Positions 16,722 to 29,442 of a stretch of DNA of 39,672 bases are shown here, piece after piece (positions within the stretch are counted from its first letter, which is position 1; every line of letters starts with the position of its first letter). The notes under the pieces were generated by a model. That model did no database searches and had not been told where the DNA came from. It was given only the letters and a program-made list of their open reading frames with translations. The DNA is taken from assembly GCA_041483295.1 (NCBI GenBank), contig JBGPFL010000001.1, forward strand, positions 1 through 39,672. Direction: 5' to 3'. Both the position numbers and the translations under genes were made by a program. Origin of the DNA: Blastocatellia bacterium (GTDB lineage: Bacteria > Acidobacteriota > Blastocatellia > UBA7656).

Positions 16722-19700
16722 CTATTTCTTCTTACTCTTCTTGTTGCTCACTTCGGGTTTTGGTTTCTCCTCCGGGGGCGGGAAGAATCTCTCAAACCCG
16801 TTCCTGGTCGGCCGCGGAGCTACTCCTGGAGGCACGCCTGGCGGCAGGAGGCGCGGCGCCTTCAATGCCGCTGCTGCGGGGGTAGTGGTCGAAGGACACG
16901 CGAACGTCTTCTGGCCGGGAGGAAGGACTCTGAATATTCCCCATGCCCCATTGATGAATTCACCGCTCGCCGGATAACTCCTGTAGAGGTAATCCCCGGG
17001 AACGCTGAAACTGCCGCCAGCCTTGTCGATCAGAATATCGAAGTGATTGCCCGGCCCAAAACCATCGCGCGATCCCATCCATTGCGATAGAGGATTGAGG
17101 CCCAATCGCGCGCTGGCAGTAAACTGCGGGCAGGTCTCCGGATTATCACAACTGTCGACATAGGGCTCCTCTTGCCAGACGTGGCCGTGAATTGTCCAGA
17201 CGCTATCCGGGAATCCGCCCTTTCCGTCCGGGTGCAGCATACGGAACCTGACAGGTTTCCCCGCTTCGGCCGAGAAGATCGGCGTGTACGGATCACCCTT
17301 GCACTGGCCGGCAGGGGAAGTGCCGCTAAAGGCCAGTTGATTCAGATTGGAGAAACTCGTCGACAGGTCGACCATACTGTAGGAAGTCGTATTGAACCGC
17401 GGCGTGCCGTTGGGCTGGCTATTGTTATAGTTCATCGGTTCCGTACCGTAATTGACTGAAGCGAACCCACTCTTGAGGTTGCTCTGCAGGATCGTAGCGA
17501 ATTCGCGGAACGAGTTGCCGCCGTCATAGCTCACATCGACAGCCGCATCCGGAATTGGCGTTCCCGGAGCGGGGCCGCTGCAATTTGAGCTGTTTGCAGC
17601 GCTGCACCACCTCGAGGCTGGAGGTTCGATGATCAGTGCTCCGATGAGAGACCACGATGGTTGGTTGACAGGATCGGATGCCATCAAGTTGGCCGCGCCC
17701 AGCTCTGCCGGCGATCTCGTCACCGAACCATCCTGGTTGATCGTCACGTTGCCAGCGTACCACTTGTACGTAACCGAATTCGAGCAACCGGTCGTGCCCT
17801 TTGGACAGGCCGTATTCACCGGATTGAACCCGGTGTTGGCGCCGTTGCTCTGGGTGACATCAAACGAGGCGAGTTGAGGATGCAACCCGATCCATTGAGA
17901 CGGGCTGGTGTTGCCGACACCCTTGCCTGACAGCAGAGCCGGGTTGAGGTTGTTAAACAGAGTGACTTGTATGCACTCTCCGGCAGCCGCTCGTAGTATC
18001 AGTGGCGTTGTCGGAGGAAGCGGACCTTGTGGATTGCCACTCTGGTTCGACAATACATAGGCGACGGCGGAACCGGAGCTGCTGCCATTCGTCAGCGCCG
18101 TGGAGTTGCGGGTGTTGTAAGTTATCGTCAAGGGCGTGGTATCGGTCGGTAATCCCTTCTGAGTATTTATCGCTGCAACATAGTAAGTCCGCGGCGTCGC
18201 GCCTGCCGGGCAGGTCTGATCGGTGGTGATGACGGGTGCCTTCAGCGGATCGTTGTTCGGCAGCTCTTGCAGATCGCTGATCAACTGTCCTGCTCCGGCT
18301 ACGTTGTATGCTCGCAATATGCCCCAGATACCGTTGGTTTGAAGGTCCCTGGTGCCCTGCCCTGCAACATACTGATAGTCGCCGAAGAAGGTTCCCTGCG
18401 GAATCTGCTTGGCCGGAGGGGGAGCACTGAAGTAACCGGTCGTATCCGTCTTCTGACTGTAAGGAACTGTAAACAGCATCTCGAAGTGCTCCGAGATCCC
18501 CATTACCTGGTTATCGCGCCACCCCGAGGTGCTGTTGGACGGCTCAAAAAGCCACTTGATACCCTGCATCCCAAAGCTATGTTGAAAGAGGTGCGCGCCT
18601 ACCAACAAGCGGACCTGCACTTTGTCATTCTGGTACGCGCGAAGAAGCGGAGTGTAGGGATCGTAGCCCGTAGCGCCGGCGAACCCCCCAGGATAGACGA
18701 ACGGGCTACCCTGCGGGCAACCAGATTGGCTCGGCGGACATACTGGCTGACCAAGCGCAGGCTGGGCGTTTATGTTTGGTTGATTAACGCTACCGGCGGT
18801 CGTAGCGCGCTGAATCGAGCTGAACGCAAAGGACATGTCCGTTGCAAGCGTGTTCGGCCCCTGTGAGGTCACCCGTTGCATAAAACTGCTGGACGAGCTC
18901 CCAATCGGCTCGTTTCGATAATTCACGGCCGCTGTGCCAACACCCTGGTTGTTAGAGATGAGAGCCGGAGTCGGTTGTGATGGTGTGCTCGTCGTCCCCG
19001 TGCAACCCGCGCCAATCAGGTTGCCACCGTTATTGCTGCAATCAACCCATCCCCAAGGCGTCTGCAGCGTGGTTATGAAACGGGGAGCGTTCTGAGGATA
19101 GGGCGTTATCTTGGCAGCGCTGGTGTTCTTGTATGCGAGCGCGAGATCCTGAAGCATCAACGCGAATTCGCGATAACTGTCAGCCTGATTCGGCGACTTG
19201 ATAATAGCCTGCCAGCTCGTGGGGCCTCCGTCCACACGGTTGCCCAATGGGCTTCCATCAACGGCGTTTAACCAACCGGATCGTTCCGGCTCGACCAACA
19301 GACCAGCATATAGCCCCGCCTGTTGATGAGTAGACGGGCCGAAATGGTCGTGAGTGAATACGCTTCGCAGAGTGCGATCGTCCTTTTGCCTGCCGAAACA
19401 ACCCTCGGCGCCATTAGGACAGCCTTCTAAAGGATCTGGATACCAGCGTTGTATGGTGGTTTGAGCGCCGAACCAGTCATCGTGGCACTTATTCGACCCT
19501 GAAGTACCGCATATGAGTGACGGCGGCGGTTGAGGGTCTCGCAGAGGCGGACAGGTCGGACAGGATCTCCAGGAACCGTTTCTGATCGCGAAAATCCGGT
19601 TGCGAACTTCGTCCGGGCTTAATGTGCCATCCTCGTAATTAAAACCGTTGGATGCCCCGTCCGAAGCCAGGACATCGAACTTTACGAGGTGAATATGCTG

Positions 19701-22700
19701 GCCGAGGATATCGGTCGGAGTTCGCACCTGAAAATTATCCAACTCGTAATAGTCGGGGACCAGGTTTGTGTGCCAGAACTCGATGATATCCTCTTTACTA
19801 TTCGCTCGGAAGAGAAACGGCTCCACCTGCTTCAGGTTGTTCATTGTCGGCATCACATCTTGCCAGAGCAATTCAAACCGTTGCTGCGGGTAATGGGACC
19901 CGACTTTACTGAAAGCTACGTCTTTCTCCACGACAGCCGCCTTGTAGCGCCGGATATTGGTACCCACAGGTATCGACTGACTATACTTCCCGTCTTCTAC
20001 CGCGGGATCGGCATAGGGCGCCCCCAACTGCGACCCGTACTGATTCTCTGCGTGAAATCCTTGACTCGGTTTCCTGGGCAAGCCGTTAGTCAAGAAAAAG
20101 CACGGTTGACCCGGAGGAACCTGGGTACAATCCACTCCCTTCGGCGTGATGGTCCCCTGTATCCTCCCCCCCATATACCGCATCGCGACGAGTTCGGTCT
20201 GCGTCCCTCCCTCGGGAAGCTGGAGAGCTAGGAGAGCACCCTTCCTGGTGGTCCTGTCGTAGGTGTCTTTCGTGAAATCCCAGTGAGTGTGGCGCTCGAT
20301 CACCACGTCGCCGTTCAAGACCAGGTGTCTGGGCAAGCCCCCATCATAGTAGACCTTATTGGCGTAGGAATCCGTTTCATAGGCGAAATCCAGCGGCGGA
20401 TGCGGGGCCCGATGGCCGGCTATTCCCGGAATAAAGAAAGGAAAGCCTGGGTTCAAATTCTTTGCTATGTCATCTTTGTTTACTACGGCGGCATATCCCA
20501 CCACCGGTTCTGGTTTTCTTACGCACTGATCGCCTACAAAGGAATCTATCCTCCAGTCGCTGTAGACCGGACAGATCTGGATCTTGGCTGGATCAGGTGC
20601 CATTGCAATGGTTGGAATCGGCACGATAGCCGGAATGGGTGTGCCCGCCGATATTTCGCCATCCGGCAGGACTCGATTGAAACCCGGCTGCGGTGTGAGA
20701 CCGTCACTCTGCAATGCCGTTCCCTCTTCGAAAACATCGTGGACTCGCCACAATGCCCACATGCCGGCGGCAAAGTGCGGATAGAAATGGCAGTGGAAGA
20801 TGGAATCTCCCGCGGTCTTATTGCGGTTCCCGCTACCGTCGTAGACCATCTCAAGAGTGAAGGCAGCGCCGGGACTGATCATCTGGCTGTCGAGATAACT
20901 GCTGTTCGTATTGTCCGGTGTATGCAGCCACTGATGCGCGTGCTGGTGATGCACGTGGCTTATCCCGCCACCTGCATTCAGTATCTGAAATTTCATGTGG
21001 TCGTTCAGGTAGCTGTGGTAAACATTAGACGGATCGTCCGGATAAAATGCCACCTGTGCTTTGGCCCCTGGCTGCGGTTCGTTCGGCCATACCGGGTTCT
21101 TGCCAGTTGTTTGTACACAAGCGAGCTGTTTAATCACATCTGATGGTACCTCTTGATTAGGTTTGTCCGGCTGAAAGTACAGGTTCACGGCAACGCCGCT
21201 GTTGTGGGCAGTAGCGGTCGAACAGTCGGCCGCGCGCAAGACGCTTACAGTGCCGATCTGGTTCCCGCTCACCCCAACGTATTGGATGAATTCGTCGTCG
21301 ATTCTTACGATGCCGCTTGAAGGGAACCCAACGCTGCTCTGAATCATGATCGGGGTGACACTGCTGGAGGTGATATTTTGAGAGAGGCCTGTTTGAGCTC
21401 TGATGGGAGTGTTAGCCGGTCTATCAACCGCCATGGCGGGGTCCCCAGAAGACCACGCGGTTAGGAAAAACTCCTCGAACTTGCATTCGACGCAGTTAGT
21501 CATCGGGCCGACCTTGATTCGATTCGCAAGGATTTCGGAACCAATTCCTCCCGTCCCATAGTTGATTGAGAATCCATCCACGCCTGCGGACATGACTGAG
21601 GAGAGGTTAGCCACGAACAGGTTCACCGTCACCTTCGCATTGTGAGCCGCGCTCGTGGACCCGTCCACTCCACGTTGAACCACGGCAGTCCCGAGGCTCG
21701 CACTGTTCTTCCCTTCGTACCAGATGTATTCGCTATCGATGAATAGGGTGCCGGCTAAAGGGAATGCCGCCGTGTTGCTAACCGGAATCGGAGTGGTGCT
21801 CGTCTGGCTGATACTTGCGGTCAAGGTAGTCGAGGTCTGCTGTGGCGGAGCATAGTACTCGCGGAACGCCTGCACGGCTGTCGGCACCTCATGATAGATC
21901 ACCGTCACTTCGCGCCATGGCTGCGTGCGATCAGGCGAAGCGGATACGGGAACGAATTGCGGAGGCGGATTCTTCGGATCTACCTTGAACACATCGGCAT
22001 TCGGCCCGGTGATAATGGCGGTCAGATCGGTGTGATAGAGCTGAAGTCTCGGATCCTTGAACGGGTCAGCCTTGCATCTCCCATTTCCCTTCTCATCGTA
22101 CTCGATGCGCTGTACGTCAACCATCTTGAGAATTGGGGCGCCGCACGAACGATTGGGCTGCTTGGGATCATATTGGCCATCCGTGGGATAGCGGGCACTG
22201 TAGTTTACTTTCCTCCTGCCGGACTGAATGGTGGAGGCGCGCATCAAATCATCGCGGGTAACCTGACTGCGGTAGTACTCTGCGGTTGCAGGTTGCACGT
22301 TCACCGCTCCGAACATTCCAGTTGAAATTTGGCCGGCATCACCAGGCCCGGTACTGCCGAGAGGAGCGCCCTGGCTGTAGAGCAAGAACGTTCCGACCTC
22401 GGCGCCATAGAGCAAGTACGTCTTGGTCTTGCCAATGTCGACGAGAGATCCTCTTTCTGTGAACAGGTTCACCAACTGGCCGCTTGGATGCGCCGCGGGA
22501 GTGGATCCCTGGACGCCGCGCGTGATGCCAGTAAACTGACTACCGCTTAATGCTGTGTATTGAATGTACTCCTCGTCGATTCTGATTACCCCGCCGGTTG
22601 TCGGGAACCCGGCGATATTTGACACCGCGATCGGACTGGTACTGGTAGCGTTGATGCCCGCGGTCAATCCAGGGGGCTGCGGCGGTGGTTGAGGCTGAGC

Positions 22701-23258
22701 CGTCATACCGTTGGTGCCGACCCAGGACCCGTCGTCCTCCGGGCCCTTGGCCCACTGCATTCCGTTTGCGTGCAGGGAGACTTCTCTTGTCAGCGGCGAC
22801 AGCGCCTGAAATCTTGCATCGGGAGTCAGAAGGTTGATCAGGTTCACCTGCAAACATTGCCCTTTGTTCACCCGTAACACGATCGGCCGGGGACGCTTAT
22901 CGGACCGCAGCCTTACCTTTCCCGGTTGCATGGCGGTGCTGGAGTCCGTTGAGATGACGTCTTGCCGAAGCGCAAAGACCGTACCCTGCGGGTAGGCCGC
23001 CCCGAGGCGGTTAAGCATGAATGGCTGATCAAGCGCCACGACATCACTGACGACGGTGTTCGTATTGTCACATTTCGGAGAAGCGGCTTGAACGGAGGCA
23101 GCTTCTTGAGCGGCTGGAAAAGAGCCAGCTCCGGGAGGAGAACCCGGAATCGCGCCGCGTAGACTCGTCGTTTGGGCATGTGCCGCGACGACGAGAATGA
23201 GAACAACCAACCCAGAACCGAACCACATCAGCCTGTGAATACGCTTGCGAGTTTTCAT
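16722..23258 (-). CDS. giant secreted multicopper-oxidase-like protein (2178 aa; MnxG/MofA-class size)
   Basis: Sec-type signal (MKTRKRIHRLMWFGSGLVVLILVVAAHA/QT) and an SD GGGAGAGG 7 nt upstream. An L3-like HVHHQHAH lies at nt 20922-20957. A canonical L4 HCHFYPHFAAGMW lies at nt 20757-20795; I verified this by reverse translation. Paralogous downstream units carry GQHIHLVKFDV (19674-19703), FTHDHFGPSTHQQAGL (19311-19358), GLHPQLASFDV and TIHGHVW (17163-17195). Confidence 0.9.
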   Translation of the reverse strand: MKTRKRIHRLMWFGSGLVVLILVVAAHAQTTSLRGAIPGSPPGAGSFPAAQEAASVQAASPKCDNTNTVVSDVVALDQPFMLNRLGAAYPQGTVFALRQDVISTDSSTAMQPGKVRLRSDKRPRPIVLRVNKGQCLQVNLINLLTPDARFQALSPLTREVSLHANGMQWAKGPEDDGSWVGTNGMTAQPQPPPQPPGLTAGINATSTSPIAVSNIAGFPTTGGVIRIDEEYIQYTALSGSQFTGITRGVQGSTPAAHPSGQLVNLFTERGSLVDIGKTKTYLLYGAEVGTFLLYSQGAPLGSTGPGDAGQISTGMFGAVNVQPATAEYYRSQVTRDDLMRASTIQSGRRKVNYSARYPTDGQYDPKQPNRSCGAPILKMVDVQRIEYDEKGNGRCKADPFKDPRLQLYHTDLTAIITGPNADVFKVDPKNPPPQFVPVSASPDRTQPWREVTVIYHEVPTAVQAFREYYAPPQQTSTTLTASISQTSTTPIPVSNTAAFPLAGTLFIDSEYIWYEGKNSASLGTAVVQRGVDGSTSAAHNAKVTVNLFVANLSSVMSAGVDGFSINYGTGGIGSEILANRIKVGPMTNCVECKFEEFFLTAWSSGDPAMAVDRPANTPIRAQTGLSQNITSSSVTPIMIQSSVGFPSSGIVRIDDEFIQYVGVSGNQIGTVSVLRAADCSTATAHNSGVAVNLYFQPDKPNQEVPSDVIKQLACVQTTGKNPVWPNEPQPGAKAQVAFYPDDPSNVYHSYLNDHMKFQILNAGGGISHVHHQHAHQWLHTPDNTNSSYLDSQMISPGAAFTLEMVYDGSGNRNKTAGDSIFHCHFYPHFAAGMWALWRVHDVFEEGTALQSDGLTPQPGFNRVLPDGEISAGTPIPAIVPIPTIAMAPDPAKIQICPVYSDWRIDSFVGDQCVRKPEPVVGYAAVVNKDDIAKNLNPGFPFFIPGIAGHRAPHPPLDFAYETDSYANKVYYDGGLPRHLVLNGDVVIERHTHWDFTKDTYDRTTRKGALLALQLPEGGTQTELVAMRYMGGRIQGTITPKGVDCTQVPPGQPCFFLTNGLPRKPSQGFHAENQYGSQLGAPYADPAVEDGKYSQSIPVGTNIRRYKAAVVEKDVAFSKVGSHYPQQRFELLWQDVMPTMNNLKQVEPFLFRANSKEDIIEFWHTNLVPDYYELDNFQVRTPTDILGQHIHLVKFDVLASDGASNGFNYEDGTLSPDEVRNRIFAIRNGSWRSCPTCPPLRDPQPPPSLICGTSGSNKCHDDWFGAQTTIQRWYPDPLEGCPNGAEGCFGRQKDDRTLRSVFTHDHFGPSTHQQAGLYAGLLVEPERSGWLNAVDGSPLGNRVDGGPTSWQAIIKSPNQADSYREFALMLQDLALAYKNTSAAKITPYPQNAPRFITTLQTPWGWVDCSNNGGNLIGAGCTGTTSTPSQPTPALISNNQGVGTAAVNYRNEPIGSSSSSFMQRVTSQGPNTLATDMSFAFSSIQRATTAGSVNQPNINAQPALGQPVCPPSQSGCPQGSPFVYPGGFAGATGYDPYTPLLRAYQNDKVQVRLLVGAHLFQHSFGMQGIKWLFEPSNSTSGWRDNQVMGISEHFEMLFTVPYSQKTDTTGYFSAPPPAKQIPQGTFFGDYQYVAGQGTRDLQTNGIWGILRAYNVAGAGQLISDLQELPNNDPLKAPVITTDQTCPAGATPRTYYVAAINTQKGLPTDTTPLTITYNTRNSTALTNGSSSGSAVAYVLSNQSGNPQGPLPPTTPLILRAAAGECIQVTLFNNLNPALLSGKGVGNTSPSQWIGLHPQLASFDVTQSNGANTGFNPVNTACPKGTTGCSNSVTYKWYAGNVTINQDGSVTRSPAELGAANLMASDPVNQPSWSLIGALIIEPPASRWCSAANSSNCSGPAPGTPIPDAAVDVSYDGGNSFREFATILQSNLKSGFASVNYGTEPMNYNNSQPNGTPRFNTTSYSMVDLSTSFSNLNQLAFSGTSPAGQCKGDPYTPIFSAEAGKPVRFRMLHPDGKGGFPDSVWTIHGHVWQEEPYVDSCDNPETCPQFTASARLGLNPLSQWMGSRDGFGPGNHFDILIDKAGGSFSVPGDYLYRSYPASGEFINGAWGIFRVLPPGQKTFACPSTTTPAAAALKAPRLLPPGVPPGVAPRPTRNGFERFFPPPEEKPKPEVSNKKSKKK

Positions 23259-27614: not shown

Positions 27615-28175
27615 ATGAAGAAGGTTGGTTTCGTTCTGGGAGTCGTTCTACTCCTCTGCGTCTCTCACGCACTTGGAGGGGACATCAAGGGCAAGGCAGG
27701 CGGAAAGCCAGGAGCCGCAGTTGTCGTATGGGTCGAAGGCATTAGGAGATTTCAGGTTCCGCACAACCGACCGAGCATCTCGCAGATGGGCACCAAGTTC
27801 TCGCCGGCCCTCCTGGTAGTCGTCGTCGGACAGACTGTCGAGATGCCTAATGACGACAATGTGGCGCACAACATCTTCTCTTATTCGCCGGCTAAGCAGT
27901 TCAACCTCGGAATCTACCCAAAAGGCGAGTCCCGCACGGTGACCTTTACAAAACCGGGTGTGGTCGATCTGTTCTGCTCAATTCACCGCCGCATGAACGG
28001 AAAGCTCATCGTAGTGCCCAATCCATACTTCAACCAGACTAGCGGCGGCGATTCATACCGGATCGCTTCGGTTCCTGCTGGCAGGTATGTTGTGAAGATG
28101 TGGACCGAGGGGCTGGGTGAGCTGTCCAAGGTTGTCACCGTTCCGGCCAAGGGAGAAGTAACGCTGGACTTTTAG
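27615..28175 (+). CDS. cupredoxin-like protein fused to a carboxypeptidase-regulatory-like domain
   Basis: Signal peptide; possible type-1-Cu-like ligand set (AHNIF ... FCSIHRRMNG, i.e. H...C-x2-H-x2-M); a C-terminal YRIASVPAGRYVVKMW beta-sandwich. AGGAG lies 7 nt upstream. Confidence 0.65.
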   Translation: MKKVGFVLGVVLLLCVSHALGGDIKGKAGGKPGAAVVVWVEGIRRFQVPHNRPSISQMGTKFSPALLVVVVGQTVEMPNDDNVAHNIFSYSPAKQFNLGIYPKGESRTVTFTKPGVVDLFCSIHRRMNGKLIVVPNPYFNQTSGGDSYRIASVPAGRYVVKMWTEGLGELSKVVTVPAKGEVTLDF

Positions 28176-28332: not shown

Positions 28333-29442
28333 ATGCCATACGAGACAAATAGAAACGCGCAGAAACAGATACTGGCCGTTTCGGCATTTACGATATTGAT
28401 AGCCATAGCGATGGTGAGCGGCCCCGCGTTAGGTGCGCGTGGTGACGCGCGCGATCTGCCTCATCCGCCCGGGAATGCCATCACGACAAAGATCCTCGAC
28501 GGGATGAGAGTCTTGCCGGGCGACCTTGCGCCGTTGCCGCCGCTCGGGGTGAGCAGCGCGCAGGAGCAGGCACAAATCGAGCTGGGCAAGATGCTCTTCT
28601 TCGACAGCCGGCTGTCACGCGACCGCTCGATGAGCTGCGCGACCTGTCACGATCCTGCGAAAGGATTCGGCGATGGCCGCGCGCTTGCCGTCGGATTCGG
28701 CGGAAAGGTGCTTGCCCGCCATTCTCCAACCGTGCTCAACGCAGCTTACAACTCGTCTCAGTTCTGGGACGGACGCGCGGCTAGTCTGGAGGAGCAGGCA
28801 GCCGGCCCGATTATGGCGGCCGCCGAGATGAACATGGCCAGCGAACAAGATGTGGTGGCGCGGCTCAACCTGGCGTCGGCTTACACCGAGCGCTTCCGCG
28901 CCACATTCGGCGAAGCTCCGAACCTGAAGAACATCGCGAAGTCTATCGCTTCATTCGAGCGTACGCTAGTGACGCCGGATTCGCGCTTTGATCGCTATCT
29001 CAGTGGCGACAAGTCCGCTTTGACCGAGCAAGAAAAGCGCGGGTTGATACTGTTCATCGGCAAGGCCTCGTGTTCCGCCTGCCACAACGGGAACAACCTG
29101 GCCGACAGTAAGTTTCACGTGCTCGGCAGCACGCCAAACCAGAAAGAGGATGTCGGCCGTTATGCCGTTAGCAAAGACGAGAAAGACCGCGGCGCCTTCA
29201 AGACACCCACGCTGCGCAACGTCGAGCTTACCGCACCCTACACACACAACGGCGTGCTCAAGAGTCTCGATGAAGTCATCGAGTTCTATAACGAAGGCGG
29301 AGGCGAGGCTAGGAACAAGTCTGACTTGATTTTGAAGCTTGAGCTGACAAAGCAGGAGAAGGCCGACCTGATCGCTTTCCTGAAGTCGCTTACCGGCAGA
29401 CAGCCGCAGGTTGAGATACCGCAGCTCCCGAGCGACAACTGA
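28333..29442 (+). CDS. di-heme cytochrome c peroxidase (CCP/MauG family)
   Basis: Two CxxCH motifs (CATCH at nt 28636-28650; CSACH further on), GKMLFFDSRLS, FWDGRA, FKTPTLRNV...PYTHNG. Confidence 0.9.
   Translation: MPYETNRNAQKQILAVSAFTILIAIAMVSGPALGARGDARDLPHPPGNAITTKILDGMRVLPGDLAPLPPLGVSSAQEQAQIELGKMLFFDSRLSRDRSMSCATCHDPAKGFGDGRALAVGFGGKVLARHSPTVLNAAYNSSQFWDGRAASLEEQAAGPIMAAAEMNMASEQDVVARLNLASAYTERFRATFGEAPNLKNIAKSIASFERTLVTPDSRFDRYLSGDKSALTEQEKRGLILFIGKASCSACHNGNNLADSKFHVLGSTPNQKEDVGRYAVSKDEKDRGAFKTPTLRNVELTAPYTHNGVLKSLDEVIEFYNEGGGEARNKSDLILKLELTKQEKADLIAFLKSLTGRQPQVEIPQLPSDN

What the first reader, a model, noticed from the sequence alone, without database searches (positions are those of the whole stretch)
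21177..22667. Three ~70-aa repeat modules inserted into the N-terminal MCO region
Seen in sequence: three colinear modules at aa 198-266 (nt 22461-22667), aa 479-548 (nt 21615-21824) and aa 625-694 (nt 21177-21386). They share the pattern T/S-rich lead, P-I-x-V/I-x-(S/N)-x-x-x-F-P-x-x-G-x-(I/F)-x-I-D-x-E-(Y/F)-I-x-Y, then R-(G/A)-x-x-(G/C)-S-T-x-A-x-H, then V-N-L-(F/Y). They precede the L3/L4 copper motifs, so they interrupt the first oxidase unit rather than forming a terminal appendage. Inference: from memory (unverified), this FPxxG-xIxIDxExIxY...RGxxGTxAxxH pattern resembles a small module seen in phage tail-fibre/baseplate and cell-surface proteins. That would suggest a binding or anchoring role (glycan, mineral or partner docking). 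Divergence at the DNA level suggests the triplication is old.
Basis: partly seen in the sequence, partly recalled or inferred. Interest (0 to 1): 0.6.

Follow-up and report, generated by a model that had tools for sequence, protein, structure and literature searches.

The report
Phage-type beta-barrel modules inside copper oxidase
A giant secreted manganese-oxidase-like copper enzyme of a soil bacterium carries three old, diverged copies of a small beta-barrel domain otherwise typical of phage tail, baseplate and head proteins, spliced into surface loops of its first two domains, where they most likely act as non-catalytic docking modules.

Summary
The 2178-aa ORF (16722-23258, minus strand) holds exactly three colinear ~72-aa copies at aa 198-268, 479-550 and 625-696. 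Pairwise identity is 41-49%, BLAST E about 1e-15, and z is 24-28 against shuffles.

The copies are clean insertions. Of 280 related MnxG-type oxidases examined, about 270 have none and a small sister group has one, at site 2. Only this protein and an 80%-identical metagenomic fragment have all three.

The module is not a cupredoxin strand. It folds alone as a six-stranded beta-barrel (AlphaFold pLDDT 95). It belongs to a very large family with no Pfam or NCBIfam model: 4980 cluster representatives, up to about 20 copies per protein. Members occur in phage tail fibres, baseplate wedges, tail tips and head-associated proteins, and in secreted bacterial proteins. The closest solved example by both sequence and fold is domain VI of the JBD30 baseplate hub.

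The nearest non-oxidase relatives sit in a phage structural gene block. The triplication is old: the DNA copies have diverged, GC matches the gene, and each copy is closer to its counterpart in the 80% orthologue than to its two sister copies.

Function is inferred, not shown. I favour tethered surface-docking modules that bind polysaccharide, mineral or a partner protein.

This is a new variant of a known enzyme kind, of moderate interest.

The parts
16722..23258 (-). 2178-aa secreted MnxG-type giant multicopper oxidase (host gene)
   Evidence: The ORF is open throughout. NCBIfam NF041487 MnxG scores E 2.4e-282 and 940 bits, below the equivalog cut-off of 3100. PDB 9bxa_A, Bacillus MnxG, scores E 6.5e-64.
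23175..23258 (-). N-terminal signal-peptide-like segment (aa 1-28, ...VVAAHA|Q)
   Evidence: Read from the translation. No predictor was run, so this is an inference.
22668..22703 (-). Pro/Gln-rich linker TAQPQPPPQPPG (aa 186-197) leading into module 1; it is part of the insertion
   Evidence: Absent from all orthologues that lack module 1. Coordinates.
22455..22667 (-). Module 1 (aa 198-268), beta-barrel domain inserted in a loop of cupredoxin domain 1 between DDGSWVGTN and SLVD
   Evidence: AlphaFold of this copy with a 49-sequence alignment gave pLDDT 95.3 and pTM 0.82. Present at the same site only in the 80% orthologue P0271.
21609..21824 (-). Module 2 (aa 479-550), inserted between ...AVQAFREYYAPP and ...LSSVMSAGVDGFSINYGTGG; the phylogenetically widest site
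   Evidence: The same site is occupied in P0002, P0003, P0004, L017, L177, L178, P0155 and P0271.
21171..21386 (-). Module 3 (aa 625-696), inserted in the length-variable loop after DPAMAVDRPAN and before the first copper motifs
   Evidence: The same site is occupied in P0186 and P0271.
20760..20957 (-). First copper-ligand motifs HVHHQHAHQW (aa 768-777) and HCHFYPHFAAGM (aa 822-833), downstream of all three modules
   Evidence: This stretch aligns to Bacillus MnxG residues 254-366.

Best explanation
Shown: each segment is one copy of an autonomous ~70-residue six-stranded beta-barrel domain. The domain belongs to a very large family that Pfam and NCBIfam do not model. Its members lie mostly in phage virion proteins (tail fibres, baseplate wedge and hub, head-associated proteins) and in secreted bacterial proteins. 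The three copies sit in three indel-tolerant loops of the first two cupredoxin domains of a secreted MnxG-type multicopper oxidase, and they leave the oxidase core colinear with its relatives. Inferred history: the ancestor of a small acidobacterial clade captured one copy at site 2, from the same sub-family as a phage head-proximal protein. Sites 1 and 3 were filled later in the lineage of this genome, by intragenic duplication or by further capture. All three have been kept since then. Inferred function: the barrels are non-catalytic modules displayed on the enzyme surface on short Pro/Gln/Thr-rich linkers. Three weak contacts together would hold the secreted oxidase on a surface. I favour extracellular polysaccharide or the metal-oxide product over a partner protein as the target.
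For: The repeat is real and occurs exactly three times. The copies are insertions: 116 of 120 best homologues, 79 of 80 genome loci and 78 of 80 metagenome loci lack the module; the closest few have one at site 2; P0271 (80% identical) has all three at the same sites. The fold is independent: pLDDT 95.3, pTM 0.82, all-beta. Foldseek matches the phage VP1 capsid chain 9in6_M (TM 0.78, rmsd 2.4), the JBD30 baseplate hub 8rk3_b (TM 0.71), and 32 BFVD proteins at E<=1e-3 with TM 0.8-0.9, including annotated tail fibres. Sequence links: PHROG tail families; 158 phage records; 4980 representatives at E<=1e-3; more than 600 stretches in IMG/VR; a weak motif match to the JBD30 hub residues 514-556 and to a minor tail protein. 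[quoted passage not shown] The same module is spliced into beta-helix proteins and heads signal-peptide fibre-like proteins in related acidobacteria. Partner domains are extracellular or adhesive: Big_9, cadherin-like, VWA, TIG, FG-GAP, dockerin, Tad. The nearest non-oxidase copies lie in a phage structural block just after the capsid gene. Retention: orthologous copies are 73%, 72% and 64% identical against 85% for the surrounding sequence, and paralogous copies only 41-49%. GC matches the gene. The gene is flanked by glycan-related genes.
Against: No binding has been tested, and no ligand site is known for any family member. The one solved homologue with a described role braces neighbouring domains and does not bind a ligand. 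The family's near-invariant E, R, H, G and Y are kept in that structural context too, so they probably define the fold and not a binding site. Site-2 copies in P0003 and P0004 have lost the I-D and the His, which suggests relaxed constraint in that lineage. The modules evolve faster than the core. The AlphaFold model of aa 60-900 gave pLDDT below 50 for the modules because the alignment does not cover them, so their packing on the enzyme is unknown. Duplication and repeated capture cannot be told apart: R1 is as close to unrelated copies (50-54%) as to R2 (49%).
Confidence: 0.6

Rival explanations
1. Structural bracing or protein-protein docking. As in the JBD30 baseplate hub, the barrels would contact other domains of the same protein, another copy of it, or an accessory subunit. 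They would stabilise or oligomerise the very large six-domain enzyme and would not bind an external surface.
For: The only solved homologue with a described role does this: domain VI contacts domain VII and stabilises the baseplate (structural and sequence hits). The nearest Pfam relative, Rcc01698_C, lies in the fibre-binding part of the RcGTA megatron protein. Bacillus MnxG works in a complex with small accessory subunits (PDB 9bxa is titled 'Mnx complex').
Against: About 270 of 280 related oxidases do without any copy, so the core needs no brace. The Pro/Gln linker before module 1 suggests a tethered domain, not a packed one. No candidate partner with the same module exists in this genome.
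Confidence: 0.22
2. Near-neutral passenger insertions. This compact domain tolerates being spliced into loops, so the copies would persist because they do no harm and would have no role of their own.
For: The modules landed in loops that vary in length among homologues. They evolve faster than the core. The site-2 copies of P0003 and P0004 have lost family-defining residues. The domain turns up inserted in many unrelated hosts.
Against: All three copies stay intact, in frame and with the full motif in two lineages that differ at 20% of residues. The DNA copies are saturated with change while the protein motif is kept. Three separate fixations in one protein are unlikely without a benefit.
Confidence: 0.12
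3. Extra metal-handling sites. The conserved Asp/Glu/His of each barrel would bind Mn(II), Cu or Ca and feed or regulate the oxidase.
For: D-x-E and His are invariant in the three copies, and the host is a metal oxidase.
Against: The same residues are conserved in thousands of phage structural proteins that have no link to metals. P0003 and P0004 lack them. No metal-binding family matches.
Confidence: 0.04
4. Not a separate domain: ordinary strands of the cupredoxin fold, or chance similarity.
For: None was found.
Against: z is 24-28 against shuffles. Orthologues lack the segments and keep the cupredoxin core. The segment folds alone with pLDDT 95 and matches phage domains, not cupredoxins.
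Confidence: 0.01

Closest known systems
Domain VI of the baseplate hub protein gp53 of Pseudomonas phage JBD30 (PDB 8RK3)
   Same: It is a small six-stranded beta-barrel of about 70 residues that extends from another domain as an insertion. It shares the core motif (I/V)D-x-E-x-(I/V)...RG...T-x-x-A-x-H-x-x-G-x-x-V (profile hit at residues 514-556). Foldseek gives TM 0.71.
   Different: The sequence match is marginal (E 0.04) and covers only the C-terminal two thirds. There it is a single copy in a tail-tip protein with a bracing role. Here three copies sit in an enzyme.
Repeat regions of PHROG families 2885, 708 (baseplate wedge), 4406, 701 (virion structural), 1101, 11439 and 9851 (tail, tail fibre); for example the gp7-like proteins of cyanomyoviruses
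   Same: It is the same sequence family, with single-copy E-values down to 7e-8, 40-49% identity in tblastn, and copies that are often tandem.
   Different: Those are long phage structural proteins with arrays of up to about 20 copies. None is an oxidase, and no function has been assigned to the repeat itself.
Pfam PF23666 (Rcc01698-like, C-terminal; RcGTA megatron protein)
   Same: It is the only Pfam model that touches the family. It hits 4 of 61 module-bearing proteins, and the match overlaps the RG..GT.A..H end of a module.
   Different: The three window copies give no hit even at E<=10, and only about 20 of the model's 98 positions align. The relation is distant and this is not membership.
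MnxG-type manganese-oxidising multicopper oxidases (Pseudomonas putida MnxG, NCBIfam NF041487; Bacillus sp. PL-12 MnxG, PDB 9BXA)
   Same: The host protein is a clear homologue with the same multi-cupredoxin layout and the same first copper motifs.
   Different: It scores 940 bits against an equivalog cut-off of 3100. It is about 300 residues longer in the first two domains, largely because of the three modules. Mn oxidation has not been tested for this protein.
Accessory Ig-like, FN3 and carbohydrate-binding modules of phage particles and secreted enzymes
   Same: These are a functional analogy only: small beta domains, promiscuously shuffled, displayed on surfaces, often on Pro/Thr-rich linkers, and giving weak multivalent adhesion. 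This rests on my general knowledge, not on a test here.
   Different: The fold is different (a closed barrel, not a sandwich). There is no sequence relation, and no binding data exist for this family.

Membership tests
Phage-virion small beta-barrel repeat (unnamed; PHROG 2885/4406/1101/11439 repeat; JBD30 gp53 domain VI type) | Sequence signature FP..G...(I)D.E.I.Y ... RG..(G)T.A..H..G..V over about 70 residues | tested here: met
   All three copies carry it. PHROG hits reach E 7e-8. A broad 61-sequence profile scores the copies at E 7.5e-25 to 2.5e-21.
Phage-virion small beta-barrel repeat (unnamed; PHROG 2885/4406/1101/11439 repeat; JBD30 gp53 domain VI type) | Autonomous six-stranded beta-barrel fold | tested here: met
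   This rests on prediction only. AlphaFold gave pLDDT 95.3 and pTM 0.82 with six strands. TM is 0.78 to 9in6_M, 0.71 to 8rk3_b and 0.8-0.91 to BFVD models. There is no experimental structure of these copies.
Phage-virion small beta-barrel repeat (unnamed; PHROG 2885/4406/1101/11439 repeat; JBD30 gp53 domain VI type) | Occurs as tandem arrays or as an insertion within other domains of extracellular or virion proteins | tested here: met
   Proteins carry up to about 20 copies. The module is inserted in beta-helix proteins, in the JBD30 hub, and here in three cupredoxin loops of a protein with a signal-peptide-like N-terminus.
Pfam PF23666 Rcc01698_C | Score at or above the Pfam gathering threshold | tested here: not met
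   The three copies give no hit at E<=10.
NCBIfam NF041487 MnxG equivalog (host protein) | Whole-protein score at or above the curated cut-off of 3100 bits | tested here: not met
   The score is 939.9 bits. The protein is a homologue, not an equivalog.
MnxG-type multicopper oxidase superfamily (host protein) | Homology to a solved or characterised MnxG, including the first HxH...HCH copper motifs | tested here: met
   9bxa_A scores E 6.5e-64. The alignment covers HVHHQHAHQW and HCHFYPH. The fold match has E 2.5e-16.
MnxG-type multicopper oxidase superfamily (host protein) | Mn(II) oxidation activity | not testable with these tools
   This needs an enzyme assay.
   The segments fall in gaps of every orthologue alignment. 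The core on either side is modelled at pLDDT above 90.
Curated carbohydrate-binding or adhesin domains (Pfam, NCBIfam) | Significant match to any curated binding-module family | tested here: not met
   No Pfam or NCBIfam hit was found for the copies.

The most novel reading that the evidence does not exclude
The oxidase would use its three phage-type barrels as phage baseplates and heads use theirs, for domain-to-domain contacts. The secreted enzyme would then self-assemble, or lock onto a matrix scaffold, as an ordered extracellular layer that templates metal-oxide deposition. That would be a virion-assembly module domesticated for biomineral organisation.
Probability: 0.08. Interest if true: 0.75.

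Novelty: new variant of a known kind. Interest (0 to 1): 0.45.

Why it matters
There are two points.

1. **The domain family is uncurated.** It is very abundant: about 5000 clusters at 50% identity, hundreds of phage genomes, and giant proteins with about 20 copies. Yet Pfam and NCBIfam have no model for it and it has no assigned function. This locus shows it as a portable cassette that can be inserted into loops, and that has moved between phage structural proteins and a cellular enzyme.

2. **Giant Mn-oxidase-like oxidases are poorly understood.** How they are held where the oxide forms is an open question. A small clade with zero, one or three copies at defined loops is a natural deletion series for testing whether such modules localise the enzyme.

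If the modules have no role of their own, the case still shows how large enzymes grow by capturing phage domains.

Tried and rejected
- **Curated families:** Pfam at E<=10 and NCBIfam at E<=0.1 on the single copies gave nothing.
- **PDB by sequence:** the three-sequence profile gave nothing. The 61-sequence profile gave only marginal hits.
- **Viral loci:** The search for related loci with the three-copy alignment found only 3 loci. A narrower 10-sequence alignment worked.
- **Tree:** FastTree was used instead, so branch supports are approximate.
- **Module packing:** AlphaFold of aa 60-900 with 76 homologues modelled the oxidase core well. The three modules came out below pLDDT 50 because almost no row covers them, so it says nothing about how they pack.
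- **dN/dS:** the metagenome scan did not return the contig of the 80% orthologue, so dN/dS could not be computed. That protein came from a tool whose output cannot be used to fetch its DNA, so I did not try.
- **Literature:** searches found no name for the domain.
- **Rejected readings:** cupredoxin strands or chance; a recent DNA duplication or an assembly artefact, given the diverged DNA and an independent orthologue with the same architecture; and an intein or other selfish element, since the copies match only a structural beta-barrel family and no other curated family.
Full report
**1. The observation**

The finding lies in one long minus-strand ORF, 16722-23258, of 2178 aa. The three segments are 41-49% identical in pairs. 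BLASTP E-values are 5e-16 to 1e-14. Smith-Waterman scores of 141-146 compare with about 25 +/- 5 for 500 shuffles, so z is 24-28.

Nothing else in the protein resembles them; the next best E is 0.78. Neither a three-sequence nor a 61-sequence profile finds a further copy in the 5.4-Mb, 82%-complete genome. The repeat is real and there are exactly three copies. I set the boundaries at aa 198-268, 479-550 and 625-696.

**2. The host protein**

- NCBIfam places the protein with MnxG-type manganese-oxidising multicopper oxidases: E 2.4e-282 and 940 bits, well below the equivalog cut-off of 3100.
- The only solved relative by sequence is Bacillus sp. PL-12 MnxG, 9bxa_A, at E 6.5e-64. The alignment covers the first copper motifs, HVHHQHAHQW (aa 768-777) and HCHFYPH (aa 822-828).
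- An AlphaFold model of aa 60-900 has a confident core. Its best fold matches are the Mnx complex (E 2.5e-16) and whole two-domain laccases (target TM 0.6-0.66).

So the N-terminal 900 residues are one two-cupredoxin unit, and all three modules lie inside it, upstream of its copper ligands. The N-terminus looks like a signal peptide (my inference, no predictor was run).

**3. The modules are insertions**

In alignments with homologues, each module falls in a gap between conserved blocks:

- Module 1 lies between DDGSWVGTN and SLVD, and brings a Pro/Gln linker of its own.
- Module 2 lies between ...AVQAF.EYY.PP and ...L..G.D.F.INYGTGG.
- Module 3 lies in the length-variable loop after DPAMAVDRPAN.

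A module HMM gave these counts:

| Set examined | With the module | Copies and site |
|---|---|---|
| 120 best homologues of the N-terminal region | 4 (this protein plus P0002-P0004) | three here; one at site 2 in the others |
| 80 loci from species-representative genomes | 1 (a Pyrinomonadaceae MAG) | one at site 2 |
| 80 loci from JGI metagenomes | 2 | one at site 2 |

Homologous regions without modules are about 540-570 aa long, against 841 aa here.

A 737-aa metagenomic fragment, P0271, is 80% identical to aa 81-803 and has all three modules at the same three sites. Two shorter fragments confirm sites 2 and 3. The architecture is therefore not an assembly artefact.

The most parsimonious order is site 2 first, with sites 1 and 3 added later in this lineage.

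**4. Age**

- The DNA copies share only a 14-nt stretch at the VNLF end.
- Module GC (0.569) equals that of the rest of the gene (0.566).
- Orthologous copies in P0001 and P0271 are 73%, 72% and 64% identical, while paralogous copies are 41-49%.

So the triplication predates the split of these two lineages. The surrounding sequence is 85% identical, so the modules evolve faster than the core but are retained.

**5. What the module is**

Pfam and NCBIfam give nothing for the copies. PHROGs gives tail fibre, baseplate wedge, tail and virion structural families for each copy, with a best E of 6.8e-8. tblastn against 50,697 phage records finds 158, mostly Synechococcus and Prochlorococcus myoviruses, under features named baseplate wedge subunit or gp7.

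A profile of the three copies, run against 1.84 billion cluster representatives, finds 4980 proteins at E<=1e-3 and 531 at E<=1e-10. Many have tandem copies. HMMER reports up to 23 matched stretches per protein, 18 at domain E<=1e-3, and the proteins reach 8000 aa. A narrow peptide pattern alone hits more than 600 stretches in IMG/VR.

With a 49-sequence alignment built from the window and viral loci, AlphaFold folds module 1 at pLDDT 95.3 and pTM 0.82 as an all-beta domain of six strands. Foldseek results:

| Library | Match | Score |
|---|---|---|
| PDB | 9in6_M, a phage VP1 capsid chain | TM 0.78, rmsd 2.4 Å |
| PDB | 8rk3_b, JBD30 baseplate hub | TM 0.71 |
| PDB | 4y9v_A, AP22 tailspike | TM 0.54 |
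| PDB | N-terminal beta-barrel of F1-ATPase subunits | TM about 0.55 |
| BFVD | 32 viral proteins at E<=1e-3, including annotated tail fibres | TM 0.8-0.91, rmsd about 1 Å |

A 61-sequence profile also hits the JBD30 hub by sequence at residues 514-556 (E 0.04), with the (I/V)D-x-E...RG...H motif aligned. It hits a 1296-aa minor tail protein as well. [quoted passage not shown]

The only Pfam model touching the family is PF23666 (Rcc01698_C). It matches 4 of 61 module proteins over the RG..GT.A..H end. That region of the RcGTA megatron protein is its fibre-binding domain (PMC7296036).

**6. Where else the module occurs**

In 8 of 36 genomes of the same family, and 1 of 24 more distant genomes of the same order or class, the module occurs in other proteins. 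Two kinds stand out by eye:

- proteins with a signal-peptide-like start, then the module, then fibre-like repeats;
- beta-helix-like proteins in which the module is spliced into the N-terminal part of the helix domain.

Among 61 mid-sized module proteins the partner domains are Tad, NHL, Big_9, cadherin-like, VWA, TIG, FG-GAP, dockerin, pectate-lyase-like beta-helix, phage sheath, Dit and prophage tail. These are extracellular, adhesive or virion contexts.

**7. Origin**

In a FastTree of 137 copies, all oxidase copies fall in one clade (support 0.86) together with five copies from three proteins, P0173, P0196 and P0216. This clade shares two features: an extra residue giving T-(S/T)-P-I before strand 2, and, except for R1, a longer loop before the Arg. 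P0173 is encoded in a phage structural block, two small genes downstream of the major capsid gene.

So the oxidase modules and a phage head-proximal protein drew on the same sub-family. The direction of transfer is not resolved. Duplication and repeated capture cannot be separated either: R1 is as close to unrelated copies (50-54%) as to R2 (49%).

**8. Mechanism**

Shown:
- the domain folds on its own;
- it sits in loops;
- its family lives on virions and secreted proteins;
- the copies have been retained in two lineages.

Inferred: the barrels are displayed on the surface of the secreted oxidase on short linkers and act as non-catalytic contact modules.

I favour multivalent docking to an external surface for five reasons:
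1. The core enzyme plainly works without them in most relatives.
2. The partner domains elsewhere are adhesive.
3. Module 1 brings a Pro/Gln linker.
4. The copy number rose from one to three.
5. The gene sits among glycan-related genes (GH130-like, GINT1_N/GH43-like).

Against this reading:
- The only described role of a solved homologue is bracing.
- The conserved E, R and H are probably fold determinants.
- The site-2 copies of P0003 and P0004 have lost some of these residues.

I put docking at about 0.6, bracing or partner binding at about 0.2, passenger at about 0.1 and metal handling at a few per cent.

**9. Novelty and verdict**

The enzyme family is known. The fold has been seen in solved phage structures. 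The sequence family is large but has no Pfam or NCBIfam model. Its presence three times inside an MnxG-type oxidase is a new architecture, confined to a small acidobacterial clade. This is a new variant of a known kind and of moderate interest.

Notes from the earlier scan on this window describe the gene neighbourhood and agree.

Noticed in passing
window 16725-16900 (-), aa ~2120-2178: The oxidase ends in a Pro-rich then strongly basic tail (...PPGVPPGVAPRPTRNGFERFFPPPEEKPKPEVSNKKSKKK). It could itself bind anionic polymers or oxide surfaces.
   Followed up: no
L006, L009, L012, L013 (genomes of the same family or class): Proteins that look like right-handed beta-helix (pectate-lyase-like) proteins have the same module spliced in just after a conserved 'YLRGGTYxGKF...VRSYPGEWA' start. 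This recalls the insertion domains of phage tailspikes.
   Followed up: partly
L004, L005, L007, L008, L010 (genomes of the same family): These proteins have a signal-peptide-like start, a conserved 'YP..LDS..SL' lead, one module, a helical 'HNTLS.A....E.K.G' segment and then long fibre-like repeats. They look like tail-fibre-like secreted proteins or prophage fibres.
   Followed up: no
L257 10001-11512 (metagenome contig, phage structural block): P0173, the closest non-oxidase carrier of this module sub-family, lies two small genes downstream of a Phage_capsid_4 gene and upstream of SU10_adaptor genes. It may be a head fibre or decoration protein. Its family has only 11 members in 5.8 billion clusters.
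   Followed up: partly
P0121-P0134, P0158, P0167 (representative library): Giant proteins of 3800-8000 aa carry 10-23 matched stretches of the module. Their nature, phage or cellular, was not examined.
   Followed up: no
window 21176-21189, 21614-21627, 22460-22473, 22835-22848: A 14-nt word (GGTGAACCTGTTCA on the coding strand, encoding VNLF/VNLI) ends each module and occurs a fourth time in a cupredoxin strand (aa ~137-141). This is probably coincidence plus codon preference.
   Followed up: no
window 27615-28175 (+) and 28333-29442 (+): A small plastocyanin/azurin-type cupredoxin and a di-haem cytochrome c peroxidase (CCP_MauG) lie a few genes from the oxidase on the divergent strand, after a GH130-like gene and a 667-aa beta-propeller protein.
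   Followed up: partly
P0003, P0004, L017 (one-copy orthologues, site 2): Their single module has lost the I-D of the ID.E hairpin and the conserved His, so it may be decaying or re-purposed in that lineage.
   Followed up: partly
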